This document shows, in pieces, positions 22,473-64,000 of a stretch of 64,000 nt of DNA. Source of the stretch: a virus (lineage: Duplodnaviria > Heunggongvirae > Uroviricota > Caudoviricetes); IMG/VR virus record IMGVR_UViG_3300047202_000060; one strand, written 5' to 3'. The notes under the pieces are model-generated. The model had not been told where the DNA came from. It did not search any database and saw only the letters and a program-made list of their open reading frames with translations. Position numbers and translations under genes: made by a program. Position 1 is the first letter of the stretch. The number at the start of each line of letters is the position of its first letter.

Positions 22473-23912
22473 TTATGGCGTAAAGGTCACGGTTATTGAG
22501 GGAACACCGTTAACCCTGATTCCTAGTTCATGTATCGTTGTGTAATAACGATTAGAACCATCGGAATATTGCACTTGTGTTGATACGTCTTGACGAAGCG
22601 TTCCTGTCACGGTGAAAGTATCTGTTCCGTAGATTTGCACGATTCTGTTATAGACATCACTTGGCAGTTGGAAGCTAACCGAAGAGGGTACATCTCCCGT
22701 ATAAATCATAGAGAACGTATTAGCATATCGCATATCGAGAGAGCAAATTACCATCGTGACACTTATAGTGTACTGTGGCGGTGGAATCGGTATCGGATTG
22801 AAGACAGCAATAACACTAATATCATGTATCATAGTTATGTCTGCTGGATTTATTGTTGCAATTCCATAGGAATCAATTACCCAATGGTCAAAATACCATC
22901 CTTCACTTGGATAAGCTGTTACGGTTATCTCTGTTCCTTCAACATAGCTATGAACACCTATTGGGTCGGCTGTCCCGAATCCAGATTGAGTACCGTCACA
23001 TGCTTCCACGGTAACTGTCAACGTGTAGTATTTCGGTGGTGGTGGTGGAATCGGAATCTCGCAGAAAACAGCTTCTAGCGTATGATTTGAGCATTGCTCT
23101 TGTGGATTGCACATCTCTATGCTTATTGGATTTGTTGTGTTGCTCACGTAGTTTCCATCGAGAACCCATCTCTTGAAATAGTTTCCAGAATCGGGAATAG
23201 CTGTTACAGTTGCTATATCGCCAGCGTCATAGAGATATACGCCTACTGTCGGATTAGTTATGCCGTTTCCCTGAGTGGTGATTGTCAAAGAATACTTTGG
23301 AATAATCTGTATTTCTTCAAACCACACTTCCAAGTTTTCTGGGTTAGTCATATTGATTGTTATTGGATTGTCCGTTGTTTTCTTGCCCTCAAATTCAAAA
23401 TGGTCAAATTCATATCCGTTGTTCGGGGTAGCCAAGATTGTCAGTACGGTGTTCTCCAAATAATAACCTTCTGTACAGTTAACCGTACCATCTCCCGTTT
23501 GATGAATATTGATCGTCAGCTTGTATGTTGGAATCTTCTCAAAGTTCGGTGTCAATTCTATATCAGTTGTTATGTGAAGTTGAATCGGATTGTTTGTGTT
23601 TTCAGATGTCCATCCCAAAGCTTTGACAAACCATCTATCAAAGTAATATTCGGTATCTGGTATTGCGGTGACGTTTACGATAGTACCATAACCATAATGG
23701 TATGTACCAGAATCGGGACTTGTTTCTCCATGACTAGCTGACTTAATCTGTAGTTTATACGTTGTTTGTGTAAGAAGTGTTACATCATAGCCAGAATGTG
23801 TTCTAGTAGAACCCCCTTCATTGATAATCATAGCAAATGCTGGTGCTATTGTCATTGCGATTGCTAGAAAGAACGCTATTAGAATTGCGAACATTATTCT
23901 TTTCTGTTTCAT
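22473..23912 (-). CDS. secreted or membrane-anchored repeat glycoprotein (four tandem ~90-aa beta-rich repeats)
   Basis: signal peptide MFAILIAFFLAIAMTIAPAFA; repeated GxYxYxxG..VTAxPxxGYxFxxW..NPI motif; five N-x-S/T sequons; PPPPP linkers. Confidence 0.5.
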   Translation of the reverse strand: MKQKRIMFAILIAFFLAIAMTIAPAFAMIINEGGSTRTHSGYDVTLLTQTTYKLQIKSASHGETSPDSGTYHYGYGTIVNVTAIPDTEYYFDRWFVKALGWTSENTNNPIQLHITTDIELTPNFEKIPTYKLTINIHQTGDGTVNCTEGYYLENTVLTILATPNNGYEFDHFEFEGKKTTDNPITINMTNPENLEVWFEEIQIIPKYSLTITTQGNGITNPTVGVYLYDAGDIATVTAIPDSGNYFKRWVLDGNYVSNTTNPISIEMCNPQEQCSNHTLEAVFCEIPIPPPPPKYYTLTVTVEACDGTQSGFGTADPIGVHSYVEGTEITVTAYPSEGWYFDHWVIDSYGIATINPADITMIHDISVIAVFNPIPIPPPQYTISVTMVICSLDMRYANTFSMIYTGDVPSSVSFQLPSDVYNRIVQIYGTDTFTVTGTLRQDVSTQVQYSDGSNRYYTTIHELGIRVNGVPSITVTFTP

Positions 23913-38017: not shown

Positions 38018-38046
38018 TTTACATCTGGGAATACTAAGGCGAACCA

Positions 38047-38181: not shown

Positions 38182-38197
38182 TTAATCATCTGATTAA
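38182..38197. repeat. 16-bp palindrome TTAATCATCTGATTAA
   Basis: inverted repeat copy. Confidence 0.55.
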
Positions 38198-38250
38198 AAG
38201 AATTCATGGTTAATGCCTATTTACACCTTTCGCAACCTTAATAAGCAACC

Positions 38251-38711: not shown

Positions 38712-38732
38712 AAGTATTTAAAGGTTATGGTT
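38712..38732 (-). promoter_or_regulatory. class II promoter element
   Basis: agtatttaaaggttatggttg. Confidence 0.4.
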
Positions 38733-39963: not shown

Positions 39964-40596
39964 TTACGGAACTTTGTCTTCTGGATTCCAATGAGTTTGT
40001 TCATATTTTAAAAGCCAACTTTTATAACTTTCTTCTGTTCTACGCATTTTCTTTGTTTGTGATGTTGATTGATGGTTTATTACAATGTGAATTGCTGGTG
40101 CGTGTACTATATCTATTTCTCCATCTTTATCAAAAACTCTCCTATGATCTGTTGACCAATGCACGGTTTCTGTTTTTCTAATACACGCATATCTTAGATG
40201 TAATGCATAAGGTTTATACATTAGCCAATGCATACGATAGACTTTTTCATTAAAGTTTTCAAGTGTTTTACGAACGTCATCTCCCCATTCAACTATATAT
40301 TCATCTGAATCTATAATTAGACCCCAATCTCCATTATTGAGATATTTAAGAGATTCCGTCCGAGACTCGTGTTGATGCATAACGGACAATTGAATATAAG
40401 AAACTTTAGATTTGGAAATTTTGGCAAATTCTTCTATTACTTTATCTGTTCCATCATCTGAGTGGTCTGGACCTTCAATACCGTGCCATCTGCCGTCAAA
40501 ACACATTATCTCGTCCACTTTACCATCTATACTTTGAAGACACGGTAATATAACTTCTGAACATTGATATGTCATAATTATTGCTACAAGTTTCAT
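39964..40596 (-). CDS. glycosyltransferase family 2-like
   Basis: N-terminal KLVAIIMTYQCSE; acidic DSDEY motif; 210 aa. Confidence 0.5.
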   Translation of the reverse strand: MKLVAIIMTYQCSEVILPCLQSIDGKVDEIMCFDGRWHGIEGPDHSDDGTDKVIEEFAKISKSKVSYIQLSVMHQHESRTESLKYLNNGDWGLIIDSDEYIVEWGDDVRKTLENFNEKVYRMHWLMYKPYALHLRYACIRKTETVHWSTDHRRVFDKDGEIDIVHAPAIHIVINHQSTSQTKKMRRTEESYKSWLLKYEQTHWNPEDKVP

Positions 40597-52954: not shown

Positions 52955-53481
52955 TTTATCTCCTTATGTGGGCAAACGCCATAAAACCCTTTAGCAAGAT
53001 TACAATTATGACACAAAACTTGGTATCCTTCGGGATAACCATTTCGCTTGAGCCAAAGATAAAAATCTGTTCCTTTAACCGTCTGTTTTCTATGCTTATT
53101 TCCACCACCATTAATGTGGTCAATTGACAAGAACTTTATCTCGGTTTCGCCACAGCAGATACACTTAGAAACGCCATTGCTATAATGAGTTAACACTTCT
53201 AATCTAATTTTTTGCCTGTTTTTTTGGCAAGTAATTCTTCGTTGTTCTTTATGAGTTTTAGCCCATTCATTATTTTTTCTGCATATTGCTCCCTTATGTT
53301 TCTGATAATATTCTCTTTTTTTCCTACAATATTCTTCACGGTGTTTTATCCACTTCTCTTTTTGTCGTTCCCTGATTTCTTCCCTATGGTTTTCATAATA
53401 CTCTTTTCCCTTTTGATTATAATACTCTTTATGAGACCGTTGATATTTATGTTGGGCTTGATATTTCTCAGGTTCTTCCAA
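52951..53481 (-). CDS. HNH endonuclease with basic repeat N-terminus, coupled (ATGA) to downstream HNH-B gene
   Basis: CICCGETE..IDHINGGGN..VLCHNCNLAKG; repeats KEYYNQKGKEYYENHREE. Confidence 0.6.
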   Translation of the reverse strand: MEEPEKYQAQHKYQRSHKEYYNQKGKEYYENHREEIRERQKEKWIKHREEYCRKKREYYQKHKGAICRKNNEWAKTHKEQRRITCQKNRQKIRLEVLTHYSNGVSKCICCGETEIKFLSIDHINGGGNKHRKQTVKGTDFYLWLKRNGYPEGYQVLCHNCNLAKGFYGVCPHKEIK

Positions 53482-53513: not shown

Positions 53514-53538
53514 AGTATATAAATGTTATGGTTTGGTC
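53514..53538 (-). promoter_or_regulatory. class II promoter element
   Basis: agtatataaatgttatggtttggtc, box 34 nt upstream of 53481. Confidence 0.4.
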
Positions 53539-53939: not shown

Positions 53940-54824
53940 TTAACTTTGATGATAACTACCTTTTGGTGAAGGAAACGACATCTTACGTTCCTCTTCTTCC
54001 ATCTTCTGTTTACGTTGTTCCTCACATTTCTTGCTATCAGTTGTCTTGTCAAAAATGAACTGGAAAAAGTTCTCGTCCAAGAATTGGTAGATACTATCAA
54101 TCGGTATGAAAAATCCCATCCAAGTGATTATATCTACACCGAAACCAAGTTGCACACTTGCTACTCTAGCGGTATTTCCTATATACTCATAGGAGTCCGA
54201 CAGAAAAACTGGTCCACCAGAATTGCCGAATATGACGTTAGCAGAAGTCATCCAGTATTCTTTTGCATCTATTTGGTCGCCTTTAGACGATAAGTTTCCA
54301 AACGTGAAGAACGGATTGTGTGCCATCGAGCAACCACAACTTATCATTGAAGTTCCGATTTTTATGTCATCTCCCTTGTCCTTCGGATAGAGTTTCGCAA
54401 TATACTCTACTTTTTCAGAACATTTTACTTTAAGTAGAGCAACATCAAGTGGTTTGTCATAAGCAACTATTTCGGCATCCAAAGTTGTACCACCTACACA
54501 TCGGCTCAACTTCTCATACTTGAAAAGTTCTACACGCACAAGTTCGTTAGCTTCAACTGTGATGTCTTTCTTTGCAATGCTAGACCATTTCTTGACGAAT
54601 TTGATTGCGTCTTCAACAACGTGGTGGCAAGTCACAATGTAAGACTCATATTCTTTGTCTTCATCTGATTTGTCGAGAGTATCTGGGGTTACACTAGAGT
54701 AAATAACAACACCAGTTCCAGCGGCATGTTCCGTCAAAACTCTAACAATAGGATAAAGGATATGCTTATGGATTTCTTTCAGTTTTTCAGCAGATATATC
54801 CATCATAATCACCAATAGATACAT
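53940..54824 (-). CDS. trypsin-like (S1/HtrA-like) serine protease
   Basis: catalytic His context TCHHVV; Ser motif GNSGGPVF; 294 aa. Confidence 0.6.
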   Translation of the reverse strand: MYLLVIMMDISAEKLKEIHKHILYPIVRVLTEHAAGTGVVIYSSVTPDTLDKSDEDKEYESYIVTCHHVVEDAIKFVKKWSSIAKKDITVEANELVRVELFKYEKLSRCVGGTTLDAEIVAYDKPLDVALLKVKCSEKVEYIAKLYPKDKGDDIKIGTSMISCGCSMAHNPFFTFGNLSSKGDQIDAKEYWMTSANVIFGNSGGPVFLSDSYEYIGNTARVASVQLGFGVDIITWMGFFIPIDSIYQFLDENFFQFIFDKTTDSKKCEEQRKQKMEEEERKMSFPSPKGSYHQS

Positions 54825-54855
54825 TAGACAGTTCTGGTATATAAAGGTTATGGTT

Positions 54856-54877
54856 TTATTTATCCAAAGCTTTGCCC
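54856..54877 (-). promoter_or_regulatory. class II promoter element
   Basis: ggtatataaaggttatggtttt, box 33 nt upstream of 54824. Confidence 0.4.
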
Positions 54878-55192
54878 TTGATGGTCAACATTGCACTTAT
54901 TCTGGTCATCATCATCTTCTTCTTCCTTTTCTTCTTCATCATCTTCATCATTTTCTGGTGTCTCTTCACCAAAAGGATTATAATCAGGTGGCGGTGGTGG
55001 AACTGGTTCATCTATATCTTGTTCAAGTTGACCCATAAAATGAAGAGCACAAAGATAAATTTTTACCATTTCAAATCGTCCATGTAATTCTCGTTTAACA
55101 TAACATTCGAATATACTATCAGATGATTTTCCGCAATACTCACAAATTGGACCAGAAACAACTTGACTTTTAGGTTCTTCGTCTTCCGACAT
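54860..55192 (-). CDS. acidic Zn-ribbon protein with poly-D/E tail
   Basis: CEYCGKS..C..CALH; EDDEEEKEEEDDDD. Confidence 0.45.
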   Translation of the reverse strand: MSEDEEPKSQVVSGPICEYCGKSSDSIFECYVKRELHGRFEMVKIYLCALHFMGQLEQDIDEPVPPPPPDYNPFGEETPENDEDDEEEKEEEDDDDQNKCNVDHQGQSFG

Positions 55193-55221: not shown

Positions 55222-55246
55222 GAGTATATAAACCTTATGGTTACGG
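55222..55246 (-). promoter_or_regulatory. class II promoter element
   Basis: cgagtatataaaccttatggttacgg, box 32 nt upstream of 55192. Confidence 0.4.
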
Positions 55247-56410
55247 ATGAGGATGAGCCTGTTGTGAGTCTGGCTTATAATTCGATTCTGGTATTGGAAC
55301 ATCATTTAAAGTAAGTTGAGTTTTCGATACTCCAATTTTATTGAATATATCAAGCAATGCATTACATAATTTCTCATCATCAAATAGTTCTAAAACTCTT
55401 TTACGCCCAGCTTCCACCATTTTATGATAGAATTCTTTATCTGTTTTTAATCGTTCGATAAGTTCGATTTGTTTAACATAGTCAATTGGTGTAGTATAAA
55501 GTTCTGGAAATATATCATGTACTGAATCAGATGAACCAACACAGGGTATGCAAGTTATTGCACATTCCATAGCAAATCTCGACCAACCGCCATAACCAAT
55601 ATTATTATCCAGACCTATCGAGTTAGTTCTCCAAAGCAAATCCGCATATGGTTCATATTCTAATCGTTCATACACTATACTATTAACTGGAAGTGGTGTA
55701 TTTCTACGGAAATTTTCTACAAAATGTCTATCAAGAGTACCATTGAAAACTGTTACAGGATAATTTTTAGGTCTTATAACATTTTCAAGAGAAGCAGAAA
55801 TTGATGAACTTTTAGGAGAATGAAGCATCATAGCTATATTATTTCCTTTATGATTTTCGGAATATTTTCGTAAATTGTATCTACAAAGTTGTGGAATAAA
55901 CAATTTAAATACTGGTTTAGTAGTATATTTTTGAAGTTGAAAATTATTAGTTACCACGAGATGTGCATCTGGAATTTCAAGTATGCCTGTATCTTTGAAA
56001 AATTCTTCTGGTCCCTGATTGGGTGGATTTGGCATTATTGATGTATCCCACCACATTCCTTTAGGGTCGAACAACCATAAAAATTCATCATCATATTGGG
56101 CAATCATTTTGGCTTCTGGCTTCATAAATGGTTTTACAAATTGTGGCAAAGTCCACCAACTAATGCCTGATGGTTCATGTCTTGTTGACCGTCTTACTAT
56201 ATAAGCAAAAACTACGTCAGCTTGTTTTAGAGGATTCCAATATGGGTCATTTTTGAAATCGGAGTGAATTTTCTTATACAACGGCGCGGCATTTATCGAT
56301 ATTACTTCTATTCCGAGTTTTGCTTTAAACTTTTCAAGAGCGATATTCCATTGAAAGTAATTATAACTGTCGAAATAAGCTACGATACATAATTTCGTTT
56401 CTTCCACCAC
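55241..56410 (-). CDS. hypothetical protein of glycan module, AHPHP tail
   Basis: 389 aa; no confident family. Confidence 0.45.
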   Translation of the reverse strand: MVEETKLCIVAYFDSYNYFQWNIALEKFKAKLGIEVISINAAPLYKKIHSDFKNDPYWNPLKQADVVFAYIVRRSTRHEPSGISWWTLPQFVKPFMKPEAKMIAQYDDEFLWLFDPKGMWWDTSIMPNPPNQGPEEFFKDTGILEIPDAHLVVTNNFQLQKYTTKPVFKLFIPQLCRYNLRKYSENHKGNNIAMMLHSPKSSSISASLENVIRPKNYPVTVFNGTLDRHFVENFRRNTPLPVNSIVYERLEYEPYADLLWRTNSIGLDNNIGYGGWSRFAMECAITCIPCVGSSDSVHDIFPELYTTPIDYVKQIELIERLKTDKEFYHKMVEAGRKRVLELFDDEKLCNALLDIFNKIGVSKTQLTLNDVPIPESNYKPDSQQAHPHP

Positions 56411-57531
56411 CTTTTAAGATATTTTATAATATTAGAAGTTGCATTTCCATTCCCAAAGATATTTTCAATAGAAAGTATAAAACTTCTAGGCTTGTTCAAT
56501 TCATTTGCTATATCTTTACATTCAATCAACTTGTTTGCACCACATTTAATAGTTTCGACCCATACAGTATTTCGTCTGAGCGTCAAACAGGGAACTTTAA
56601 GAAGAAATGCTTCTCTTTGAATACCGCCAGAATCAGTAAGAATGTACTGTGCCCCAAGCATAAGTTTTATCATATCACCATAGCCAAGCGGTTCACAGGT
56701 ATGAATAAGCGTATTTTTAATCAGTTGATTAATTAGACCATTCTCTTCTAAAGCCTTACGAGTCCGTGGATGTATAGGAAAAATAATAGATGTTTTTGAT
56801 TGCACTAGAATATCAATTATCTCTTTAAGACGAACTAAATTATCAATATTTTCGACTCTGTGAAGTGTGACTACATTATAATTTCTTGTTTTATGCAAAT
56901 ATTTTGGTAGATTTTGAAGAAGAACATCATATCCGATGTCTCCTGTAAATACGACTTTGCCGAGAATATGTTCTTTCTTTAAGTTATTTATCGAATCTGT
57001 TGTTGGAGCAAAAAGAATTTCGGAACAGTTGTCAATGATTATTCTATTTATTTCTTCTGGAAAATTGTTCATAGAAAGTTCTCTATGAAAGTTTACCTCA
57101 TCATAGGTTTGTTCTCTAAGTCCAGCCTCGATATGTGCAATTGGAATGTTTAGCTTTTTAGCCGCCAACGCCGCTCCTAATGTAGAGTTTGTATCTCCAA
57201 TAACCAGCACTAAATTTGGCTTATATGCAACTAGAGCCTTTTCAGACTCGACCATAATCTTCGTTAGCTGTTCCATAGGAGAACCAGAACCTACACCGAA
57301 GTTCAAATCTGGATGATTGTCTAGTTCTTCCTCGAAAACCCCAGACATCTCATAGTCGTAATGCTGTCCAGTATTCCACACTTGAAGTTCTAACCAATCC
57401 TCTTTTTTAAGTTGATGAATAACTACCGATGAACGAATTAGCTGAGGACGAGTCCCAATAATAAATGCGAGTTTCATTTTATGGATGTGAATATTATTTC
57501 CCATTTCATTGTTCATGTCATACGCCGCCAT
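56380..57531 (-). CDS. wecB: UDP-N-acetylglucosamine 2-epimerase (non-hydrolysing, WecB-like)
   Basis: GTRPQLIR, NTGQHYDYEMS and DSGGIQREAF match WecB hallmarks; 383 aa. Confidence 0.8.
   Translation of the reverse strand: MAAYDMNNEMGNNIHIHKMKLAFIIGTRPQLIRSSVVIHQLKKEDWLELQVWNTGQHYDYEMSGVFEEELDNHPDLNFGVGSGSPMEQLTKIMVESEKALVAYKPNLVLVIGDTNSTLGAALAAKKLNIPIAHIEAGLREQTYDEVNFHRELSMNNFPEEINRIIIDNCSEILFAPTTDSINNLKKEHILGKVVFTGDIGYDVLLQNLPKYLHKTRNYNVVTLHRVENIDNLVRLKEIIDILVQSKTSIIFPIHPRTRKALEENGLINQLIKNTLIHTCEPLGYGDMIKLMLGAQYILTDSGGIQREAFLLKVPCLTLRRNTVWVETIKCGANKLIECKDIANELNKPRSFILSIENIFGNGNATSNIIKYLKRWWKKRNYVS
56717..56732. repeat. palindrome TTAATCAGTTGATTAA inside epimerase CDS (encodes NQLI)
   Basis: only copy deep inside a long gene. 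Confidence 0.3.
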
Positions 57532-58046
57532 TTATCTCTCATTTCTATATATATTGTTGGTTTGATTTTCAAACCTTTTGGTATCCATACAAAATCTTGT
57601 TCATTAATTTTTTTAAGAGGGTTTTCCGAATATTCCTCATCTGTAAGTACATTTCCAAAAGGTGGATTTCTTCGAATTCCAAAATTAACCTTTTTCTGTA
57701 CTTCTGGGTCATTTAAATGTATTATCCCAAGGTCTGAAAGATGTTCATAAAATGCAATAGCACGAATATTTGTTGGAAGAAGATACATCGAAATATTACA
57801 TTGTCGAGCATAAAAACATAATACTGTAATCAAAAGTCTTCCCCAACCTTGTGAACGGTATCCTTGCTTTATATTTAAAGTTGTAGGTTGAATCTGTCCA
57901 TCCGTTAAATAAACATTAATAGTTCCAATTTCTTCTTTATCCAAAAAGATTTTAATAGTAGAAAATTTAGCAGAACCTACAGTTTGAACTATTGACAGAC
58001 CAACAGGTAAACCGCTAGGATATGAAATATTATAAAGACCTTTCAT
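57513..58046 (-). CDS. GNAT-family acetyltransferase-like
   Basis: QGYRSQGWGRLLI resembles GNAT motif A. Confidence 0.45.
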   Translation of the reverse strand: MKGLYNISYPSGLPVGLSIVQTVGSAKFSTIKIFLDKEEIGTINVYLTDGQIQPTTLNIKQGYRSQGWGRLLITVLCFYARQCNISMYLLPTNIRAIAFYEHLSDLGIIHLNDPEVQKKVNFGIRRNPPFGNVLTDEEYSENPLKKINEQDFVWIPKGLKIKPTIYIEMRDKWRRMT

Positions 58047-58759
58047 TTAGAATCACCTTTTATCTCTAAGCAGTATGAGGCAAATCCAACTTTATGTTTC
58101 CAAAATTGTAGTGTATCCGTTTTACCAGATTTCCAAAGATAATATGCTGTTCCAATTATACCCTTGAAATGTTCATCATTACTTTCCCTTATAAGTTTCT
58201 GAATGTAAAAGTGTAAAAAACCCATTATATTATCTTTGAGATAATCACTATGACCTAAAATAGTAGTATAAACACTAAATTGTCCAACTCTACGAAAAGC
58301 TATGTAACCAACTAACTTTTTCTCTTTAGTAAATATTCCAATCCAAATTTTATAATGAAGCGGACATTTATAGACATTGAGAGAATTGAAACTACATAAA
58401 TCTCTTGTCAATTCTTCAACAGAACTTTGATACCATTTTCCCATTGGTCTGCCTTGACGTTCTGTTTTACTGTGATTTATATCATGGATTTCCTGAATGT
58501 GTTCTGATGGAACAAAAATTTCACAATAATATCCCTTTCTTTCTGTATCTCTGTAGTATTCTCGTGTCCGTTTTGATATTTGTTTCCATAATTCATTCCA
58601 ACTTATTGATATGGGCAACCATGCGGCTGGATTTGTATTTGTTAATTTTATAAAAGGCAAAGCGTCATCAACAAATATTTTGCTACAATTTTGATACTCA
58701 TCCCTCATTAAATCAATAGTTATAGCAGGAATATTTTCTATATTTTCGTTTTCCATCAT
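58043..58759 (-). CDS. hypothetical protein, paralog of 58765..59523
   Basis: ELWKQISKRTREYYR..GYYCEIF..DINHSK..KWYQSSVEEL shared with 58765..59523. Confidence 0.5.
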   Translation of the reverse strand: MMENENIENIPAITIDLMRDEYQNCSKIFVDDALPFIKLTNTNPAAWLPISISWNELWKQISKRTREYYRDTERKGYYCEIFVPSEHIQEIHDINHSKTERQGRPMGKWYQSSVEELTRDLCSFNSLNVYKCPLHYKIWIGIFTKEKKLVGYIAFRRVGQFSVYTTILGHSDYLKDNIMGFLHFYIQKLIRESNDEHFKGIIGTAYYLWKSGKTDTLQFWKHKVGFASYCLEIKGDSK

Positions 58760-58764
58760 ATCAC

Positions 58765-59523
58765 CTATGGATGTGGACGGGCTTGTCTTTCATCTGGATT
58801 GTATTTTTCATTTGATATATAACTCCCCTTTGATATTATTTTATATGGACAAAATCCAGCAGTATGTTTCCAAGCATTTAATCCTTCTCGACCACTATCA
58901 TATATCCAATATGATGTTCCAGCAATACCCTTGAAACGTTCATCGTTAGTTTCTCTTATTAACTTTTGAATATAAAAATGTAAGAAAAACATTATCCCAT
59001 CGTGAAGATAGTCACCGTGACCAAGAATACTTTCATAAGTGCTGAACTGTCCAATTCTGGTTAATGCTATATAACCAACTAATTTCTTCTCTTTAGTAAA
59101 CACTCCAAACCAAACTTTATAGTGGTACAAACATTCTCCCTCATCATATGGAGATTTATAATTTCTAAACTCATTTTTTAATTCTTCAACTGAATGTTGA
59201 TACCAACTTTGCATTGATACACCTTGACGAATAGCTTTACTATGATTTATGTCATAGATGTCTTTACAATATTCTTTAGGATTAAAAAGTTCACAATAAT
59301 ACCCTTTTCTTATACAACGCTTATACTTTCTCATAACCTCTTTTTCTCTATGTTCTCCGCTAGTTCGTTTAGAAGTCAATGTCCACAATTCATCCCAACT
59401 CATTGAAGTTGGTATCCATGCCGCTAACTTTCTTTGATATATTTCAAAAAGAGATGTATGTCCTTCTAACATATGAAGACATTCTTCACCATTGTCTGGC
59501 ATTAAATCAACAACTTCAATCAT
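58765..59523 (-). CDS. hypothetical protein, paralog of 58043..58759, ARPHP tail
   Basis: tandem duplicate of 58043..58759. Confidence 0.5.
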   Translation of the reverse strand: MIEVVDLMPDNGEECLHMLEGHTSLFEIYQRKLAAWIPTSMSWDELWTLTSKRTSGEHREKEVMRKYKRCIRKGYYCELFNPKEYCKDIYDINHSKAIRQGVSMQSWYQHSVEELKNEFRNYKSPYDEGECLYHYKVWFGVFTKEKKLVGYIALTRIGQFSTYESILGHGDYLHDGIMFFLHFYIQKLIRETNDERFKGIAGTSYWIYDSGREGLNAWKHTAGFCPYKIISKGSYISNEKYNPDERQARPHP

Positions 59524-59531
59524 AATATCAC

Positions 59532-60446
59532 CTACGGATGTGGCTTTGGTTGATTTACGTCTGGATTATAATTTTCTGAAAACAAAGAAGGTGTCTCATT
59601 TAAACTATTGCGATATATTTTTCCATCTAAAGAAATATGCCGAAGATAAATATCAGTTGCACAATAGACTTTTAAACCCATTTCACGTATTTTGTCTGTA
59701 AATGGAACAACTATATCATAACCTTGTACACTCATTCTAGCCCCATCAAAAATCACTTTAGGTTTTATCATAAATACATGCCCTGTAATTAAACATTCTA
59801 TAATTGGGTCATTTTTTGCCATATCAGAAAGTTCTTTATCTGAAATATATTTTACCCCTGAACCGCCTCTATTTCCTTTTTCTGCTCCCAAAAAAAGTGG
59901 AGCGGCTAATTTTCCGTGACGGGGATAACGCTGATGATGAACACCGCCAACCCAACCAGCATCTTTCTTCAAGTCAAAAACTTCCAAATATCTAAGTATA
60001 ACATTAGAAGGTGGAAGAGCATCAGACATGAAAACCATAAAATAATCATGTTCCTTTGTCAAATGAGAAAAGAGAAAATGATAAACATCACATAATCGTT
60101 GTGCTCTCATAATAGCTTCTCCCATATTTTCAAGATTATTTTTGCCGCTAGTATATCTTTGATTTGCTTGTGCTTGAGTTAATTTTCCAAATCTTTCCAA
60201 ACCATAATGCTTTTGATACAACTCAAACGAGTGATAATTATATTTGACTTTAATTTCTTCATAATGTTTTTGAAGTTTTTCCCAAGTTGTATCATTGCTA
60301 TCATTTTCAATCCAAACCAAATCAATTAATTCCTTCGGATAATCAAGCGCGAGAAGAGATTCAACATACTGGTCTATTGAGTGATCTTCATTATTGAATG
60401 GAGAACAAATCAATATTAGTTTATCAGGTTTTTTAGTTTCAGACAT
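59532..60446 (-). CDS. GT2-like glycosyltransferase, paralog of 62235..63575, KPHP tail; start trimmed from 60587
   Basis: LILICSPFNNEDHS...WIENDSNDTTW; shared WVGGVHHQRYPRHGK; ATG 10 nt after stop of 60457..61245. Confidence 0.45.
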   Translation of the reverse strand: MSETKKPDKLILICSPFNNEDHSIDQYVESLLALDYPKELIDLVWIENDSNDTTWEKLQKHYEEIKVKYNYHSFELYQKHYGLERFGKLTQAQANQRYTSGKNNLENMGEAIMRAQRLCDVYHFLFSHLTKEHDYFMVFMSDALPPSNVILRYLEVFDLKKDAGWVGGVHHQRYPRHGKLAAPLFLGAEKGNRGGSGVKYISDKELSDMAKNDPIIECLITGHVFMIKPKVIFDGARMSVQGYDIVVPFTDKIREMGLKVYCATDIYLRHISLDGKIYRNSLNETPSLFSENYNPDVNQPKPHP

Positions 60447-60456
60447 ATTTTCACCA

Positions 60457-61245
60457 TTATGGATGTGGATATTGTTTTCCTTCTGATTTTTTAGATTTAG
60501 ACTCAGATTCAAACTTAGATTTAGGTGGAACAAAATTACATGTATGATTACACGGATGCAATAACAATTGACAAATAATTCTTCCATCTTTCGCTGTTAC
60601 ATTTTTTATTTGATCTATTAAAGAAGAAAGTGCACGTCCTTTACAATCACTCAAATAATTAAATTTGGCTGTTCTGAGAATCCAATATGCTTCATAAAGA
60701 CCTAAATCCGCAAGATTTAATGTGTATAAATCTATATTATGATATTTCATTGGAGCATTTGGCAAATAGAATTCTTTAAAAATTTGATAACCTACTACTT
60801 TAGGCGGTGGATAATCTCCACCATGAGAAGCTAATCCATGAATTTGAATACCATTTTCTCTAAGATATTTTATCTCTCTATCCAATATCATCTTATGAGT
60901 CATAGTAGGATTTTGAATACATTCACTTAGAGTATCAAAATGAAGTCCAACTTCATGACCCATATCTTGCAATTGTTTACACTTTAAAATAAAATCTGGT
61001 TCTCTATAATATGGTCTAGTATGTAAAACAAAGAAAGTGGAATGAATACCCATTTCTTGTTCTAATGCTCCAAGTTCTAAACCCCAATCTATACTCATAT
61101 CTAAATCATGACGTAAAATGCAAATTTTGAGGTCTTTTCTATCTTTATATTGTTCCCAATCTTGACATCTTATGATTGTAAAGTTATCATCTATCAATTT
61201 TTGTAAGATTTCTCGACATTCTTTAATATTTAAATACCGATTCAT
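60457..61245 (-). CDS. hypothetical protein (possible carbohydrate esterase), YPHP tail
   Basis: 262 aa; RHDLDMSIDW; weak. Confidence 0.4.
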   Translation of the reverse strand: MNRYLNIKECREILQKLIDDNFTIIRCQDWEQYKDRKDLKICILRHDLDMSIDWGLELGALEQEMGIHSTFFVLHTRPYYREPDFILKCKQLQDMGHEVGLHFDTLSECIQNPTMTHKMILDREIKYLRENGIQIHGLASHGGDYPPPKVVGYQIFKEFYLPNAPMKYHNIDLYTLNLADLGLYEAYWILRTAKFNYLSDCKGRALSSLIDQIKNVTAKDGRIICQLLLHPCNHTCNFVPPKSKFESESKSKKSEGKQYPHP

Positions 61246-61248
61246 TTT

Positions 61249-62226
61249 TTATCCTTCCCTCAATGGGTCATACTCTTCACAATAAGCTAACCCATGAATG
61301 TGAGTTTTCTCATCAGCTATGGTATTTCTACCACCAATAACGTAAAGTTTACCATTTAGAACTGCACATTCTGTTCCATCTCTAGGATAATTACAGGATA
61401 ATTTCTTTTCCCAAGAGTTCTCAATTGGGTCATAAACGTAATTGGATGTATAAAATCCATTGTTCGTATGACAAATTCCTACGGGATTAGGAACAGAAGT
61501 TGGTACTTTTTTAGAATCTGGGTCATAACCACATACGACATATATTTTTCCATTTATAACTGGATTTTCTCTAGTTGTTCCATATACTTTAATTGGTAAC
61601 GGAGTTTTTGTTGTCCAATCATCTGTCGTTAAATCATACATCTCATTTGTATTCAGAGCCACTACATTAACAACAGTTTTACCATCTCTATAATTTTTTT
61701 GTCGAATAACCCCGCCGATTACGTATATCTTAGTACCTATGATTGCACAGGTTCCCCATTTTCTAAGTGTTGGAATCTCTGACTTTTTTATATATGTATC
61801 TGTGGTAATATCGTATTCATAATGTATTTTATTACAAAACAAATGAATTTTGTTATTATATCTTACACCCATTAAACCATGTTCAAATCCAGATGGTAAA
61901 TCAGCTTTTTCTGTCCAACTATCAGATACAGGATTATAAACTTCAACTACAAGAGTCGGTTCATATGTTGTTGTATTTCCACCGAAAACATATATCAACC
62001 CATCCACTTCTATCGCTAATTCTCCCCAACGTGCAGTAGGCATATCTGCTCTTCGTCCCCACGAGTTTGTTTGTGGGTCATAAACAAATGTTTCCTTTCT
62101 TGAATCATTCGAAGAATCGAAATATCCACCGAAAACATATAACTTGCCATCACAAACCGCACAAGTACCATCAGCCTTAAATGGCATTGGCATTGGAGTT
62201 TTTATTGTCCAACATTCGTTTGTCAT
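61249..62226 (-). CDS. Kelch-repeat beta-propeller protein
   Basis: six GK(L/I)YV(F/I)GG blades. Confidence 0.65.
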   Translation of the reverse strand: MTNECWTIKTPMPMPFKADGTCAVCDGKLYVFGGYFDSSNDSRKETFVYDPQTNSWGRRADMPTARWGELAIEVDGLIYVFGGNTTTYEPTLVVEVYNPVSDSWTEKADLPSGFEHGLMGVRYNNKIHLFCNKIHYEYDITTDTYIKKSEIPTLRKWGTCAIIGTKIYVIGGVIRQKNYRDGKTVVNVVALNTNEMYDLTTDDWTTKTPLPIKVYGTTRENPVINGKIYVVCGYDPDSKKVPTSVPNPVGICHTNNGFYTSNYVYDPIENSWEKKLSCNYPRDGTECAVLNGKLYVIGGRNTIADEKTHIHGLAYCEEYDPLREG

Positions 62227-62234
62227 ACCATCAC

Positions 62235-63575
62235 CTACAAAGATATAGGCGGATGAGGAAATGCTCTTTTATCTTCCTCTTTAACCTTTTTCTTAGCCTC
62301 GTCTTCTTTTCGCAATTGTATGCATTCTGGCATTTCTTCAATTCTTCTTTGAGCTTCATTAATACAAACATCTAATCGTTCTTTATTTTCCATTATACTT
62401 CTATAACGATAATAAACAGTATCTTTCCATGTTTCTGTTGTTAAAATTCTACCAGAAAGAGGACATATTTTAGCTTTGAAAAGAGATGGCTTCTTTATCA
62501 TATTAAATGAATTTATTGCTGAGAAAATATTAGTTTTTTTAGCAACTTTTGTAAGAATTATAACAAACTGTTCGTTCTCTTCCAAATCAAACCGTTCAAG
62601 CATTACTTTCTTTTCATCACTTGCTTCAAACTCCAATTCCTCATCTGAAAGTTCTAAGCTCAAATCATGACGATAAATTTTTCCATTACAGGAAATATGT
62701 TCAAAATAAATATAACTATCACAATACATTTTATATCCCATACGTTCCATATCTTGGTCTGCCGCCAATGAGAAATCAGTAGGATATTTTCTGAATTTTA
62801 AACCTTTCTCCACTACGGTTTTTCTAATAAGCCAAATATGAGCAGTTGAGCAAACATCATTAAATATTCCATTACCCTGTCGTTGTCGTTCAAGAATTTC
62901 ATCTTCTAACAAAAACCCAACAACATATGGAAACTTCAGTTTTTCTCTATAATCCAAATAGCACAATGGATTTGCATTTGGTGGAATTTCGGAGAATTTT
63001 ATATATGGACTACATATCCCATAGTTATAAGCATTTGGCGGATGATTAGGATTATCACAAAGACATTTTCTATGACGTGGAAATCGTCTATGCATAACTC
63101 CACCAACCCAACCACAATCAGAATAATCTTCCATAACTTTAAGAAATCGTTTTAGAAAATCAGGCTTACCTAAAGCATCTGGAAACCAAAACATAGTAAA
63201 GTCATTATCTTTTGTTTGGTCAAGCATAAAATTTAGAACTTTCATAAAATGAAAGAGAATTTCACTCATTAATTTTTTATCTTGAACATTTCTTTTACCA
63301 GCCATATGACTTCCAAACTCTTCTTTTGGTATTGGTGGATAATTTCCATCAACTTTTAAAATACTAAATGAATGATAATTATAGCGTTTTTTTATCAGTC
63401 TATAATATGATTTGAGAAGATTCCAACTATTATCGCTACTATTGTTTTCAACCCACAATAGATCAATTAATTCTTTTGAATAATCAAGTTTCAATAAACT
63501 TTCTATATATAGAGGAATTGATTGTTCTTCATTACAAAACGGAGAAACGATCAAAATTCTATAAGGCTCAGACAT
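62235..63575 (-). CDS. GT2-like glycosyltransferase, paralog of 59532..60446, FPHPPISL tail
   Basis: ILIVSPFCNEEQS...WVENNSSDNSW; WVGGVMHRRFPRHRK. Confidence 0.45.
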   Translation of the reverse strand: MSEPYRILIVSPFCNEEQSIPLYIESLLKLDYSKELIDLLWVENNSSDNSWNLLKSYYRLIKKRYNYHSFSILKVDGNYPPIPKEEFGSHMAGKRNVQDKKLMSEILFHFMKVLNFMLDQTKDNDFTMFWFPDALGKPDFLKRFLKVMEDYSDCGWVGGVMHRRFPRHRKCLCDNPNHPPNAYNYGICSPYIKFSEIPPNANPLCYLDYREKLKFPYVVGFLLEDEILERQRQGNGIFNDVCSTAHIWLIRKTVVEKGLKFRKYPTDFSLAADQDMERMGYKMYCDSYIYFEHISCNGKIYRHDLSLELSDEELEFEASDEKKVMLERFDLEENEQFVIILTKVAKKTNIFSAINSFNMIKKPSLFKAKICPLSGRILTTETWKDTVYYRYRSIMENKERLDVCINEAQRRIEEMPECIQLRKEDEAKKKVKEEDKRAFPHPPISL

Positions 63576-64000
63576 TATGTTTTCTCCTTTATCTTTTTAG
63601 CTGGATTTCCGACCCAAACTTCGTTAGCTGGAACATCTTTAGTCACTACAGACCCACAACCTATTAGAGCATTTTCTCCAATTGTTATGCCACAACGAAT
63701 AGTGGAATTTGCACCAATAGATGCTCCTTTCTTTATTATGGTCTTAATTATTTTCCAATACTCAATTTTAGCTTTTGGAAAACGGTCATTAGTAAAAACA
63801 ACGTGGGGACCAACAAAAACTTCGTCTTCAATTGTTACACCTTCAGGTATAAAAACCCCGCATTCGATTTTACAATTATCGCCTATTATAACATTATTAC
63901 CTATCTCGACATAAGAACCAATAACACAATTTTTTCCTATTGTACAATTGAGAAGATTACAATAATGCCAGACTTTTGTACCTTCACCTATTTCCGACAT
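63575..64000 (-). CDS. hexapeptide-repeat (left-handed beta-helix) acetyltransferase
   Basis: tandem [LIV]G hexapeptides NCVIGSYVEIGNNVIIGDNCKIE; ATG exactly at window end. Confidence 0.65.
   Translation of the reverse strand: MSEIGEGTKVWHYCNLLNCTIGKNCVIGSYVEIGNNVIIGDNCKIECGVFIPEGVTIEDEVFVGPHVVFTNDRFPKAKIEYWKIIKTIIKKGASIGANSTIRCGITIGENALIGCGSVVTKDVPANEVWVGNPAKKIKEKT

What the first reader, a model, noticed from the sequence alone, without database searches (positions are those of the whole stretch)
55241..64000. Nucleotide-sugar and glycan modification module, plausibly decorating the repeat glycoprotein 22473..23912
The module holds a WecB-type UDP-GlcNAc 2-epimerase, a GNAT, two paralogous GT2-like enzymes and two further tandem paralogs. 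It also holds a Kelch propeller and a hexapeptide acetyltransferase at the window edge. The only obvious secreted substrate is the signal-peptide protein 22473..23912. That protein has four tandem beta-rich repeats and five N-x-S/T sequons. The module probably continues beyond position 64000.
Basis: partly seen in the sequence, partly recalled or inferred. Interest (0 to 1): 0.55.

Follow-up and report, generated by a model that had tools for sequence, protein, structure and literature searches.

The report
Tagged glycan-building operon, archaeal element
This is a real 11-gene sugar-chain-building operon on a large, uncultivated archaeal mobile element; nothing ties it to the repeat protein 32 kb away, but half of its enzymes carry a shared, apparently undescribed C-terminal "…Pro-His-Pro" tag that looks like an address label.

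Summary
The module continues past 64000 by one gene, a truncated UDP-ManNAc-dehydrogenase-like protein. LonB and MCM follow, so it is one operon of about 9.6 kb.

MCM, archaeal LonB and a BRE/TATA-like promoter motif point to an archaeal host. No capsid, portal or terminase gene was found, so "virion" is unproven.

The link to protein 22473-23912 is unsupported. Its five sequons match chance (5.3 expected), and it lies in a different transcription unit.

A new result emerged. Five of the ten in-window proteins end in a disordered tail with …PHP at or near the C-terminus. The tail recurs across at least seven enzyme types in eight related genomes. In the six genomes counted, 22 of 44 operon proteins carry it against 0 of 148 outside (p = 5e-17). 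It occurs on glycan-handling enzymes and never on single-domain nucleotide-sugar enzymes. Sister lineages carry a different shared C-terminal module or none. I read the tail as a recruitment tag whose receptor is unknown.

The parts
63575..64000 (-). Hexapeptide-repeat sugar N-acetyltransferase (141 aa), untagged. Closest to nucleotide 3-amino-sugar N-acetyltransferases (WxcM-like, WlbB, QdtC).
   Evidence: Pfam Hexapep E=7e-29. PDB 4mzu E=3e-41, 7s43 E=4e-40, WlbB 3mqg E=2.6e-30, QdtC E=5.5e-24. Below the NeuD/PglB/VioB subfamily cut-off, 87.5 against 160.8 bits.
62235..63575 (-). Long Anp1-like GT-A (GT2) glycosyltransferase (446 aa). It has a degenerate class-2-like C-terminal stretch and a near-terminal tag …AFPHPPISL*.
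   Evidence: Pfam GT2 26.5 bits (cut-off 23.3) and Anp1 27.0 bits (below the 28.8 cut-off). Paralogous to 59532-60446, E=8e-48. Tail seen.
61249..62226 (-). Six-blade Kelch beta-propeller (325 aa), untagged. Role unknown. It is an accessory member, present in only 2 of 8 tag-bearing genomes.
   Evidence: Kelch_1 E=2.8e-32. Best natural PDB hits are KLHL3/2/20 and Keap1. Far below the mutarotase (NanM/YjhT) cut-offs. Present in the window and L005; not seen in the fetched stretches of L003, L006, L021, L025, L031 and L032.
60457..61245 (-). 262-aa protein, possibly a CE4/NodB-like deacetylase (weak evidence), tagged …KQYPHP*. It is fused to the GT2 in relative L003.
   Evidence: No Pfam or NCBIfam hit. 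Only marginal PDB hits to PdaC (E=0.96) and a chitin deacetylase (E=0.79) over the same region. Fusion seen in L003 3589-5523.
59532..60446 (-). Anp1-like GT-A (GT2) glycosyltransferase (304 aa), tagged …ENYNPDVNQPKPHP*.
   Evidence: Pfam Anp1 E=2.5e-10, 40.7 bits (cut-off 28.8). 108 representatives at E<=1e-3 among 1.84 billion proteins, many multidomain fusions.
58765..59523 (-). Tandem paralog B (252 aa): GNAT-type fold with an extra half-domain, most like aa-tRNA-dependent aminoacyl transferases (Sbb17, MprF, FemX). Tagged …EKYNPDERQARPHP*.
58043..58759 (-). Tandem paralog A (238 aa) of the same family, untagged.
   Evidence: 51% identity to paralog B. Ends …LEIKGDSK*.
57513..58046 (-). 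Small GNAT acyltransferase (177 aa), untagged.
   Evidence: Pfam Acetyltransf_1 E=1.2e-6.
56380..57531 (-). Non-hydrolysing UDP-HexNAc 2-epimerase (383 aa), untagged. Equally close to an archaeal UDP-GlcNAc 2-epimerase and to UDP-GlcNAc3NAcA 2-epimerases.
   Evidence: Pfam E=7.8e-81. NCBIfam wecB equivalog 255.6 bits against a 210.15 cut-off. PDB 4neq E=5.5e-68 and 8sxv E=6.1e-68, against about 1e-34 or weaker for the other UDP-GlcNAc 2-epimerases listed.
55241..56410 (-). GT-B fold (GT4-like) glycosyltransferase (389 aa), last gene of the operon. Tagged …SNYKPDSQQAHPHP*.
   Evidence: AF2 pLDDT 90.3, pTM 0.89, tail 376-388 disordered. Foldseek GT4 BA1558, BshA and SenB, E about 4e-11. 52-member family with no Pfam domain.
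55241..55285 (-). C-terminal tag of the GT-B enzyme (14 codons plus stop).
   Evidence: 25 of 30 family members with at least 50% identity end in xHP-COOH, and the other 5 have PHP (or HPH) within about 20 residues of the end.
58765..58809 (-). C-terminal tag of paralog B.
   Evidence: 7 of 9 lineage homologues end in PHP despite unrelated linkers.
59532..59576 (-). C-terminal tag of the 304-aa GT2.
60457..60477 (-). Short C-terminal tag (KQYPHP) of the 262-aa protein.
   Evidence: The L005 orthologue ends NSHPHP.
62235..62264 (-). Near-terminal tag variant AFPHPPISL of the long GT2.
   Evidence: The same PHPP[FI] variant occurs in L003 (MGPHPPFHQ…), L021 (MGPHPPFNQL*) and P0030.
55225..55242 (-). 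BRE/TATA-like promoter motif (AACCATAAGGTTTATATA) of the next transcription unit. It overlaps the operon's last stop codon and marks the 3' boundary of the module.
   Evidence: Motif AACCWTAACMTTTAWATA: 13 matches against 1.3 expected, 11 of them on the coding strand. A related CCTTTAAATA element follows the LonB stop upstream of the operon.
22473..23912 (-). Assessed and not linked to the module.
   Evidence: Pfam Flg_new_2 E=1.6e-43. Sequons 5 against 5.3 expected. Homologues are archaeal surface proteins.
39964..40596 (-). Small GT-A glycosyltransferase outside the operon. It serves as a natural control: its in-operon homologue in a relative carries the tag, and this copy does not.
   Evidence: Pfam GT2. 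50% identity over residues 1-120 to the tagged L006 11858-12469. Ends …NPEDKVP*.

Best explanation
Window 55241-64000, plus one gene beyond the edge (to about 64809), is a single operon of a large archaeal MCM-encoding extrachromosomal element. That element may be a virus, but this is unproven.

The operon encodes a self-contained cytoplasmic glycan assembly line.

1. Nucleotide-sugar enzymes make N-acetylated amino-sugar or uronic-acid donors of the UDP-ManNAc(A) / 2,3-diacetamido-uronic type. These enzymes are a truncated UDP-ManNAc-dehydrogenase-like protein, a WlbB/QdtC-class N-acetyltransferase and a WecB/WbpI-type 2-epimerase.
2. Three glycosyltransferases (two Anp1-like GT-A, one GT4-like GT-B) build the chain.
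3. A possible deacetylase, two Fem/MprF-like GNAT paralogs and a small GNAT then tailor it. The inferred chemistry is de-N-acetylation followed by aminoacylation or acylation.

None of the enzymes has a signal peptide or a membrane segment. The operon has no initiating phosphoglycosyltransferase, flippase or oligosaccharyltransferase. The product is therefore most likely built on a host-supplied acceptor, with direct glycosylation of a protein in the cytoplasm as the alternative, and it probably ends up on the cell or particle surface.

The enzymes that handle the growing glycan carry a disordered C-terminal tag, consensus Y-[KN]-P-D-x-x-Q-A-[RH]-P-H-P-COOH. The enzymes that make soluble sugar nucleotides do not. 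I infer that the tag recruits these enzymes to one common site or partner, so they work as an assembly. The receptor is not identified.

Shown: gene content, operon boundaries, folds, and the tag with its distribution. Inferred: the sugar chemistry, the acceptor and the tag's function.
For: Gene content and folds.

Operon structure:
- Genes are co-directional and abutting or overlapping, with GGTGAT ribosome-binding sites.
- Promoter motifs occur only at the two ends.
- There is no excess of sigma-70-like sites.

Archaeal context:
- MCM and LonB lie directly upstream in the same strain (L028) and in relatives.
- Hjc, topoisomerase VI-A and inteins occur in relatives.
- There is a TATA-like promoter motif.
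- The best PDB hits are archaeal: M. jannaschii epimerase and P. horikoshii UDP-ManNAcA dehydrogenase.

The module is a stable but variable cassette at the same locus in ten related genomes.

The tag:
- 'PHP' occurs 6 times in the three minus-strand frames of the 64 kb, and 5 of those are at module C-termini.
- In six genomes, 22 of 44 operon proteins are tagged against 0 of 148 elsewhere, Fisher p=5e-17.
- It is conserved in homologues at 43-75% identity while the linkers diverge.
- It is present on at least 7 enzyme types: GT-B, Anp1-like GT-A, small GT-A, Fem-like, the 262-aa family, a weakly SGNH/GDSL-like 607-aa protein and a 749-aa hexapeptide-containing protein.
- It is never on the dehydrogenase-like, small hexapeptide, SDR, epimerase or Asn-synthase-like enzymes (same calls).
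- Tails are disordered in both AF2 models.
- Codons vary at synonymous sites.
- The out-of-operon small GT-A lacks the tag.
- Fusion proteins carry one tag each.
- Sister genomes replace it on both the GT-B and the GT2 by one shared ~50-aa module '…RP…WDxxYGKW…' (L026) or have no PHP tag at all (L024, where the large epimerase-GT2 fusion ends in a related YGIW stretch).
Against: - No receptor was found. Kelch, LonB, the trypsin-like protease and the acidic Zn-ribbon neighbour each fail co-occurrence with the tag.
- The tag sits near rather than at the C-terminus in some proteins (PHPPISL, PHPSKSK), so a free carboxylate is not strictly needed.
- The sugar chemistry is incomplete. No WbpB-like oxidase or WbpE-like aminotransferase is present, and the dehydrogenase-like protein lacks its C-terminal domain and falls far below family cut-offs.
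- The deacetylase assignment is marginal.
- The acceptor and the final location of the glycan are not addressed by any data.
Confidence: 0.55

Rival explanations
1. First reader's model. The module makes a glycan that specifically decorates the secreted four-repeat protein 22473-23912, a presumed virion glycoprotein, through its N-x-S/T sequons.
For: The protein has a signal-like N-terminus, four InlB B-repeats and five sequons. With an archaeal host, N-glycosylation of exported proteins by AglB is common (established knowledge). It is the largest exported-looking protein in the window.
Against: - Sequons are at chance level, 5 against 5.3 expected.
- It is 32 kb away in another transcription unit.
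- No oligosaccharyltransferase or flippase is present in the module.
- No virion genes were detected anywhere.
- Its homologues are generic archaeal surface proteins.
- No co-variation with the module was seen in related loci.
Confidence: 0.1
2. The PHP tail is a degron. It marks the glycan-handling enzymes for timed destruction by an element-encoded protease (LonB upstream, trypsin-like downstream) or by a host protease, limiting glycan synthesis to one phase of the element's cycle.
For: LonB sits directly upstream of the operon in most relatives, and a Trypsin_2 protease sits just downstream. C-terminal disordered degrons with a critical histidine are known for Lon (the SulA C-terminus; established knowledge). 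The tails are disordered.
Against: LonB and the trypsin-like protease persist in genomes without any PHP tag (L024, L026). Neither is adjacent to the tagged operons of L021, L025 and L031. A degron would not obviously be limited to glycan-handling enzymes, nor be replaced by a ~50-aa C-terminal module in sister lineages.
Confidence: 0.15
3. The Kelch propeller 61249-62226 is the hub that binds the C-terminal tags, as KLHDC2-type Kelch domains read C-terminal degrons, and so assembles the enzymes into one complex.
For: The Kelch protein is encoded inside the operon and is untagged. Its closest natural relatives in the PDB are peptide-binding KLHL and Keap1 propellers. The two Kelch-containing genomes (window, L005) are the only ones where the long Y-x-P-D form of the tag occurs on several enzymes.
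Against: Kelch is absent from the visible operons of six of eight tag-bearing genomes, including the fully visible L003 operon.
Confidence: 0.12
4. The tail has no targeting function. It is a by-product of the nucleotide context (stop codon plus ribosome-binding site used for translational coupling), or a proline cap against carboxypeptidases, spread by recombination between gene ends.
For: Several tags are followed by TAG-GTGAT and the next start codon. A C-terminal proline resists carboxypeptidases and slows termination (established knowledge).
Against: - The last gene of the operon, which has no coupled downstream gene, is also tagged in the window, L006 and L025.
- Codons differ at synonymous positions.
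- Stop codons and downstream sequences differ.
- The tag is kept over 43-75% protein identity.
- 0 of 148 other proteins in the same genomes carry it, although they share the same translation signals and proteases.
Confidence: 0.06

Closest known systems
Glycoconjugate gene regions of Borg and mini-Borg archaeal extrachromosomal elements (PMC12660748; 10.1101/2023.08.02.551345)
   Same: Both are large, low-GC archaeal elements with genes on one strand. Both have regions rich in UDP-sugar epimerases, glycosyltransferases and deacetylases, interpreted as surface decoration. Mini-Borgs are 52-145 kb with 31.6-35.9% GC, and their annotated genes are mainly glycosyl and methyl transfer. This element is 114-141 kb with about 35% GC.
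   Different: No pervasive tandem repeats are present here. Inverted terminal repeats cannot be tested. The backbone here is MCM-LonB-operon. The text passages retrieved from those papers mention no shared C-terminal tag.
Virus-encoded autonomous glycosylation clusters (chlorovirus PBCV-1, mimivirus fibril glycan clusters, glycosylated mycobacteriophages); from my own knowledge
   Same: A mobile element carries both nucleotide-sugar synthesis and several soluble glycosyltransferases in one cluster. This allows glycan synthesis in the cytoplasm, partly independent of host pathways.
   Different: The host domain here is Archaea. Virion genes and a glycosylated substrate are not demonstrated. Tagging of the enzymes is not a described feature of those systems, as far as I know.
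Wbp/Wlb pathway to UDP-ManNAc3NAcA and the related methanogen N-glycan sugar pathways; established knowledge plus PDB names
   Same: The module has an epimerase as close to UDP-GlcNAc3NAcA 2-epimerases as to UDP-GlcNAc 2-epimerase, a WlbB/QdtC-class hexapeptide N-acetyltransferase and a UDP-ManNAc-dehydrogenase-like protein. One relative adds an Asn-synthase-like amidotransferase.
   Different: The 3-oxidase (WbpB) and aminotransferase (WbpE) are missing. The dehydrogenase-like protein lacks the C-terminal nucleotide-sugar domain and fails the family cut-offs.
C-terminal address peptides shared by the cargo of one system: encapsulin cargo-loading peptides, the peroxisomal PTS1 tripeptide and Hsp70/90 EEVD tails; from my own knowledge
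   Same: Unrelated enzymes encoded together share a short conserved motif at the extreme C-terminus, after a variable disordered linker. Presence is all-or-none per system, and fusions need only one copy.
   Different: The motif sequence (…QA[RH]PHP) matches none of these. No shell, receptor or compartment gene has been identified. Some copies are not at the very end.
aa-tRNA-dependent aminoacyl transferases with a tandem-GNAT fold (Sbb17/Sba18, FemX, MprF, ATE1)
   Different: Sequence identity is only 10-15%. TM-scores are about 0.5. Single-domain GNATs score nearly as well. No tRNA-binding feature could be tested.
KLHDC2/3/10-type Kelch receptors of C-terminal degrons
   Same: A stand-alone six-blade Kelch propeller is encoded next to proteins that share a C-terminal motif. 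The Pfam KLHDC2/KLHL20 repeat family matches.
   Different: Kelch is absent from most tag-bearing relatives. No cullin or BTB partner is present. Binding was not tested.

Membership tests
Non-hydrolysing UDP-GlcNAc 2-epimerase (WecB, TIGR00236) | Whole-protein score above the curated equivalog cut-off, with full-length match to Epimerase_2 | tested here: met
   255.6 bits against a 210.15 cut-off. Pfam match 2-347 of 347, E=7.8e-81. Substrate could be UDP-GlcNAc or UDP-GlcNAc3NAcA, since both give E about 6e-68.
UDP-ManNAc / nucleotide-sugar 6-dehydrogenase (WecC, TIGR03026, NF040825) | Three domains (NAD-binding, central, C-terminal UDP-binding) and a score above cut-off | tested here: not met
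   The 273-aa protein (L001 1252-2073) scores 59.3 against 189.8 bits and 51.5 against 750 bits. It matches only positions of about 100-290 of the ~415-position models. The GGHC catalytic-cysteine-like motif is retained (read directly). It resembles the family but is not a canonical member.
Hexapeptide-repeat sugar N-acetyltransferase | Left-handed beta-helix hexapeptide repeats, and similarity to nucleotide amino-sugar N-acetyltransferases | tested here: met
   Pfam Hexapep 98.8 bits against a cut-off of 27. PDB WxcM-like E=3e-41, WlbB E=2.6e-30, QdtC E=5.5e-24. The narrower NeuD/PglB/VioB subfamily cut-off is not met, 87.5 against 160.8 bits.
GT-A fold, GT2 / Anp1-like glycosyltransferase | Pfam gathering score for GT2 or Anp1 | tested here: met
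   304-aa protein: Anp1 40.7 bits against 28.8. 446-aa protein: GT2 26.5 bits against 23.3. Only the N-terminal 60-80 residues match the models, so the assignment is to the superfamily.
GT-B fold (GT4-like) glycosyltransferase | Two Rossmann-like domains, with structural match to solved GT4 enzymes | tested here: met
   AF2 pLDDT 90.3. Foldseek BA1558, BshA and SenB E=4e-11 to 1e-10, TM 0.53-0.63. No sequence-level family hit.
Fem/MprF/Sbb17 aa-tRNA-dependent aminoacyl transferases | Tandem GNAT-like domains, with a clearly better structural match than to single GNATs | tested here: inconclusive
CE4/NodB polysaccharide deacetylase (262-aa protein) | Significant sequence or profile match to CE4 domains | tested here: inconclusive
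   Only E=0.96 (PdaC) and E=0.79 (chitin deacetylase) over residues about 59-117. No Pfam or NCBIfam hit.
Kelch-repeat beta-propeller | Multiple Kelch motifs above the gathering score | tested here: met
   Kelch_1 110.3 bits against 20.1, with 4 stretches.
NanM/YjhT sialic-acid mutarotase | Score above the NCBIfam subfamily cut-off | tested here: not met
   62.9 against 256.35 bits and 60.7 against 416 bits. No mutarotase among the top 60 PDB hits.
N-glycoprotein substrate (22473-23912) | Export signal plus sequon enrichment, or other evidence of glycosylation | tested here: not met
   A hydrophobic N-terminal segment is present, but sequons number 5 against 5.3 expected, p=0.66. Actual glycosylation cannot be tested here.
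Virus (any realm) | Capsid, portal, terminase or packaging-ATPase genes | tested here: not met
   None were found among the window's larger ORFs or in the related loci. A weak terminase PHROG hit at 18223-19083 is a STAND/ResIII NTPase by Pfam. The two families scanned have no relatives in IMG/VR. Only 64 kb of about 141 kb was visible, so absence from the genome is not shown.
Mini-Borg-type linear archaeal ECE | Low GC, single-strand replichores, terminal inverted repeats and pervasive tandem repeats | tested here: inconclusive
   GC about 35% with all genes on one strand and monotonic GC skew. Assemblies break near window position 1-90. There are no notable tandem repeats, and ITRs cannot be tested from one end.
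Encapsulin-like cargo-loading system | Shell protein gene next to cargo that carries a shared C-terminal peptide | tested here: inconclusive
   A shared C-terminal peptide is present. No shell or HK97-like hit appeared among the larger window ORFs scanned. Many small ORFs and the rest of the genome were not examined.

The most novel reading that the evidence does not exclude
The …QA[RH]PHP-COOH tail, and the alternative '…RP…WDxxYGKW…' module in sister lineages, is a true address label comparable to PTS1 or encapsulin cargo-loading peptides. On this reading it delivers a whole glycosylation pathway, at least seven enzyme types, to one proteinaceous structure of an archaeal element or its host. 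That structure could be a particle or capsid-like shell, a membrane glycosylation machine or a scaffold. This would be the first targeting-peptide system for a glycan assembly line in Archaea.
Probability: 0.2. Interest if true: 0.85.

Novelty: new variant of a known kind. Interest (0 to 1): 0.6.

Why it matters
Glycan gene clusters on archaeal mobile elements are already reported, so the module alone is an expected kind of find.

What is unexpected is how it appears to be organised. Soluble enzymes of at least seven different types carry the same short C-terminal peptide, and only inside this operon. Sister lineages swap the peptide for a different shared module or fuse the enzymes instead.

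That pattern marks a recruitment system. It gives a directly testable handle, a 14-residue peptide, for pulling out the partner. The partner should show where and on what these uncultivated elements build their surface glycan.

If confirmed, it would also provide a small portable tag for co-localising enzymes in archaeal hosts.

Tried and rejected
- **Stop-codon recoding** as the cause of ORF-poor stretches. Reassigning TAG or TGA adds little.
- **tRNA and Rfam elements.** None were found.
- **Borg-like tandem repeats.** Only short imperfect ones were found.
- **Relatives among deposited phage/virus genomes and IMG/VR.** None were found by megablast, tblastn or pattern scans. LonB gave only distant bacterial-phage Lon hits.
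- **Sigma-70 promoters.** There was no enrichment, 41 against 46 expected.
- **PHP tail as a by-product of translational coupling.** Rejected because terminal genes of the operons are tagged, downstream sequences and stop codons differ, and synonymous codons vary.
- **Kelch as the obligatory hub.** It is present in only 2 of 8 tag-bearing genomes.
- **LonB, the trypsin-like protease and the acidic Zn-ribbon protein as dedicated readers.** They are present in genomes without PHP tags (L024, L026) and not adjacent to some tagged operons (L021, L025, L031).
- **Kelch as a NanM mutarotase.** It scores far below the cut-offs.
- **CE4 assignment of the 262-aa protein.** Only marginal E-values were obtained.
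- **Sequon enrichment in 22473-23912.** None was found.
- **Host or taxon from cluster names.** No organism names were returned.
- **Literature search for a described C-terminal tag on glycosyltransferases of archaeal elements.** Nothing relevant was found in the held library.

Full report
**1. Observation**

All ORFs of the region lie on the minus strand. They abut or overlap, and most are preceded by GGTGAT-type ribosome-binding sites.
- Epimerase_2 at 56380-57531 (E=7.8e-81).
- A GNAT at 57513-58046.
- Anp1/GT2 N-terminal domains at 59532-60446 and 62235-63575.
- Kelch repeats at 61249-62226.
- Hexapeptide repeats at 63575-64000 (all).

The two GT2s are paralogs at 33% identity, E=8e-48. 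The two 'further tandem paralogs', 58043-58759 and 58765-59523, share 51% identity. The epimerase passes NCBI's curated wecB cut-off. Four proteins had no Pfam hit: 55241-56410, both paralogs and 60457-61245.

**2. Extension and boundaries**

A Logan contig identical to the window (L001) and a JGI contig of the same strain (L028) show what lies past 64000. The hexapeptide gene starts exactly at 64000. One more operon gene precedes it, a 273-aa UDPG_MGDP_dh-like protein. A full LonB protease and an MCM helicase come before that.

An 18-nt motif, AACCATAACCTTTAAATA, has 13 matches against 1.3 expected, 11 of them on the coding strand. Its TTTAWATA core looks like an archaeal TATA box. One copy overlaps the stop codon of the last module gene at 55225-55242. 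A related element follows the LonB stop. No copy of the full motif lies in an intergenic gap inside the module; the one 3-mismatch match, at 57872-57889, falls within the GNAT coding sequence. Sigma-70-like sites are not enriched. The module is therefore best read as one operon of 11 genes, from window 55241 to about 64809.

**3. What kind of genome this is**

The evidence points to an archaeal element:
- MCM, with an intein in some relatives.
- LonB with the archaeal lid domain.
- Hjc resolvase and topoisomerase VI-A in relatives.
- The TATA-like promoter motif.
- Best PDB matches from archaea.

The rest of the window holds accessory genes and many small unknown ORFs. The accessory genes include a PAPS-reductase-like protein, a MoxR-type AAA paired with a VWA protein, a KaiC-like ATPase, an RNA ligase, HNH nucleases, an SPFH protein and a STAND NTPase.

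No capsid, portal or terminase gene was seen. IMG/VR scans with the paralog and GT-B families returned no relatives. Among 50,697 deposited phage and virus genomes, the module DNA and the GT-B protein found nothing, and a relative's LonB found only distant bacterial-phage Lon hits. 'Virus' is therefore unproven.

Several properties resemble mini-Borg-type linear archaeal elements (10.1101/2023.08.02.551345): low GC (about 35%), single-strand coding, contigs of 114-141 kb, and assemblies that break near window position 1-90. Their typical tandem repeats are absent here. Borg papers already describe regions rich in epimerases, glycosyltransferases and deacetylases, read as surface decoration (PMC12660748).

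**4. The unknown proteins**

- *55241-56410.* The AF2 model has pLDDT 90.3. It is a GT-B fold glycosyltransferase nearest GT4 enzymes BA1558, BshA and SenB, E about 4e-11.
- *60457-61245.* It gives only marginal hits to CE4 deacetylases.
- *Hexapeptide enzyme.* It is closest to nucleotide 3-amino-sugar N-acetyltransferases: WxcM-like, WlbB and QdtC.
- *Epimerase.* It is as close to UDP-GlcNAc3NAcA 2-epimerases as to the M. jannaschii UDP-GlcNAc 2-epimerase, both about 6e-68. The other UDP-GlcNAc 2-epimerases listed reach about 1e-34 or weaker.
- *Dehydrogenase-like protein.* It matches UDP-ManNAc dehydrogenases (4r16, Cap5O). It lacks the C-terminal domain and fails the family cut-offs.

Together this suggests donors of the ManNAc(A) or 2,3-diacetamido-uronic type. 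The 3-oxidase and aminotransferase of the Wbp/Wlb route are missing.

No module protein has a signal peptide or membrane segment. The one hydrophobic segment reported lies in the non-coding 5' extension of ORF 59532-60587. The operon has no initiating transferase, flippase or oligosaccharyltransferase.

**5. The proposed substrate**

Protein 22473-23912 does have a signal-like N-terminus and four InlB B-repeats. Its five sequons equal the 5.3 expected from composition, p=0.66. Its nearest named homologues are surface proteins of Bathyarchaeia and Thermoplasmatota at about 35% identity. It sits in a different transcription unit 32 kb away. Nothing links it specifically to the module.

**6. The unexpected feature**

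Five module proteins end in …PHP or …PHPPISL. In the three minus-strand frames of the whole window, 'PHP' occurs six times, and five of those are at these C-termini. The three long tails read SNYKPDSQQAHPHP, EKYNPDERQARPHP and ENYNPDVNQPKPHP, on a GT-B, a Fem-like protein and a GT-A respectively.

Homologues from other contigs keep the ending while the linker changes:
- 7 of 9 lineage members of the paralog family end in PHP.
- 25 of 30 GT-B family members with at least 50% identity end in xHP-COOH. The other five have PHP (or HPH) within about 20 residues of the end. Members below 50% identity lack it.
- Thirteen of the 108 GT2-family representatives end in PHP.

Both AF2 models leave the tails disordered.

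I examined the operon in seven related tag-bearing genomes: L003, L005, L006, L021, L025, L031 and L032. In six genomes (the window and five of these), 22 of 44 operon proteins carry the tag against 0 of 148 proteins outside, Fisher p=5e-17. L031 and L032 show the same pattern.

Tagged proteins are GT-B, Anp1-like GT-A, small GT-A, Fem-like, the 262-aa family, a weakly SGNH/GDSL-like 607-aa protein and a 749-aa hexapeptide-containing protein. The nucleotide-sugar enzymes are never tagged. These are the dehydrogenase-like protein, the small hexapeptide transferase, SDR, the epimerase and the Asn-synthase-like enzyme.

A small GT-A in the window that lies outside the operon (39964-40596) lacks the tag. 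Its in-operon homologue in L006 has it.

**7. Alternative C-terminal states**

Genome L024 has the same MCM-LonB-operon backbone but no PHP tag on any operon protein.

In L026 and many family members, the GT-B and the Anp1-like GT2 both carry a different shared C-terminal module of about 50 residues, …IPxRP…(Q)WDxxYG(K/R)(W/F)…. It has no Pfam match.

The canonical module and a terminal HP never co-occur in about 160 sequences. The window's long GT2 and P0172 keep a degenerate version of the module upstream of their PHP.

Large fusions carry a single tag each. Examples are epimerase+GT2, and P0161, a 1,344-aa fusion holding a GT-B-family region, a GT-A-like region and the Anp1-like GT2.

This pattern has four elements: one tag per polypeptide, class switching shared by unrelated enzymes, all-or-none occurrence per genome, and fusion as an alternative. 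It is what one expects of a recruitment or docking device for enzymes that work together.

**8. What the tag is not, and candidate readers**

The tag is not a side effect of translational coupling. The last genes of operons are tagged, downstream sequences and stop codons differ, and synonymous codons vary.

Kelch is attractive as a reader because its nearest natural PDB relatives are peptide-binding KLHL and Keap1 propellers. It occurs in only two of the eight tag-bearing genomes.

LonB, the trypsin-like protease and the acidic Zn-ribbon neighbour persist in genomes without PHP tags. They are not adjacent to some tagged operons.

The receptor is therefore unknown. It may be encoded elsewhere on the element or by the host. 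A degron role remains a rival explanation.

**9. Verdict**

The module is real and is a single, conserved but cassette-like operon of an archaeal element. As a glycan cluster it is a new member of a known kind. The proposed link to the repeat protein and to virions is unsupported. The shared C-terminal PHP tag is the part that deserves follow-up. I found no description of it in the held literature.

Noticed in passing
window 6740-6757, 8418-8435, 38715-38732, 53516-53533, 54838-54855, 55225-55242 and others (minus strand): An 18-nt promoter-like motif, AACCATAACCTTTAAATA, with a TATA-box-like core. It has 13 matches against 1.3 expected, 11 of them on the coding strand, several just upstream of genes. 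It also occurs in related loci after stop codons.
   Followed up: partly
window 1-500; L029 and L030 ends: Independent assemblies of the same strain end within about 90 bases of window position 1. The only sizeable plus-strand ORF there is 138-473. This may be a genome terminus with a tiny second replichore, or a repeat.
   Followed up: partly
L001 1252-2073 (extended window coordinates about 63988-64809): The UDP-ManNAc-dehydrogenase-like protein is only 273 aa. It has the NAD-binding and central domains with a GGHC motif but no C-terminal UDP-binding domain. This length (273-285 aa) is conserved across the lineage (L002, L003, L005, L024, L026).
   Followed up: partly
P0045-P0063, P0150-P0168; L026 5523-6881 and 8511-9758: A second, undescribed C-terminal module of about 50 aa, …IPxRP…WDxxYG(K/R)(W/F)xxF…, is shared by the GT-B and Anp1-like GT2 families in sister lineages. 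It has no Pfam match and alternates with the PHP tag.
   Followed up: partly
window 54860-55192; L002 6983-7288; L003 9514-9855; L024 14312-14623: A small Cys-rich (Zn-ribbon-like) protein with a poly-Pro stretch and a long acidic tail. Its own extreme C-terminus, …VDHxGQS(F/W)G, is conserved. It always sits just after the glycan operon and before a Trypsin_2 protease (53940-54824).
   Followed up: no
L003 8088-8375; L025 13017-13328; L032 7449-7745 and 11148-11429: Small ParB_N-domain proteins (93-103 aa) recur inside the glycan operons of relatives, though not in this window. Several carry QAHPYP or GPHPTP-like motifs near their C-termini.
   Followed up: no
L006 15-2756; L021 6053-9106; L032 1852-5100: Inteins with LAGLIDADG domains interrupt the MCM helicase in some relatives and the LonB protease in one (L032). 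The window's own strain has an intein-free MCM of 673 aa (L028).
   Followed up: no
window 15574-18223 and 34516-38251: Stretches of 2.6 and 3.7 kb have no ORF of 100 aa or more on either strand. This is not explained by stop-codon recoding, tRNAs or Rfam families. They probably hold many very small genes.
   Followed up: partly
window 5433-6701, 6924-7820, 8439-10205, 18223-19083, 21307-22203, 26623-27558, 43301-44278: The accessory gene set comprises a PAPS-reductase-like protein, a MoxR-type AAA ATPase next to a VWA-domain protein, a STAND/ResIII-like NTPase, an SPFH/Band-7 protein, a KaiC-like ATPase and an RNA ligase. Several HNH nucleases are also present (31404-31958, 52951-53481).
   Followed up: partly
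window 39964-40596: A fourth glycosyltransferase (small GT-A) lies outside the operon and is untagged. In relatives its homologue sits inside the operon and carries the PHP tag.
   Followed up: yes
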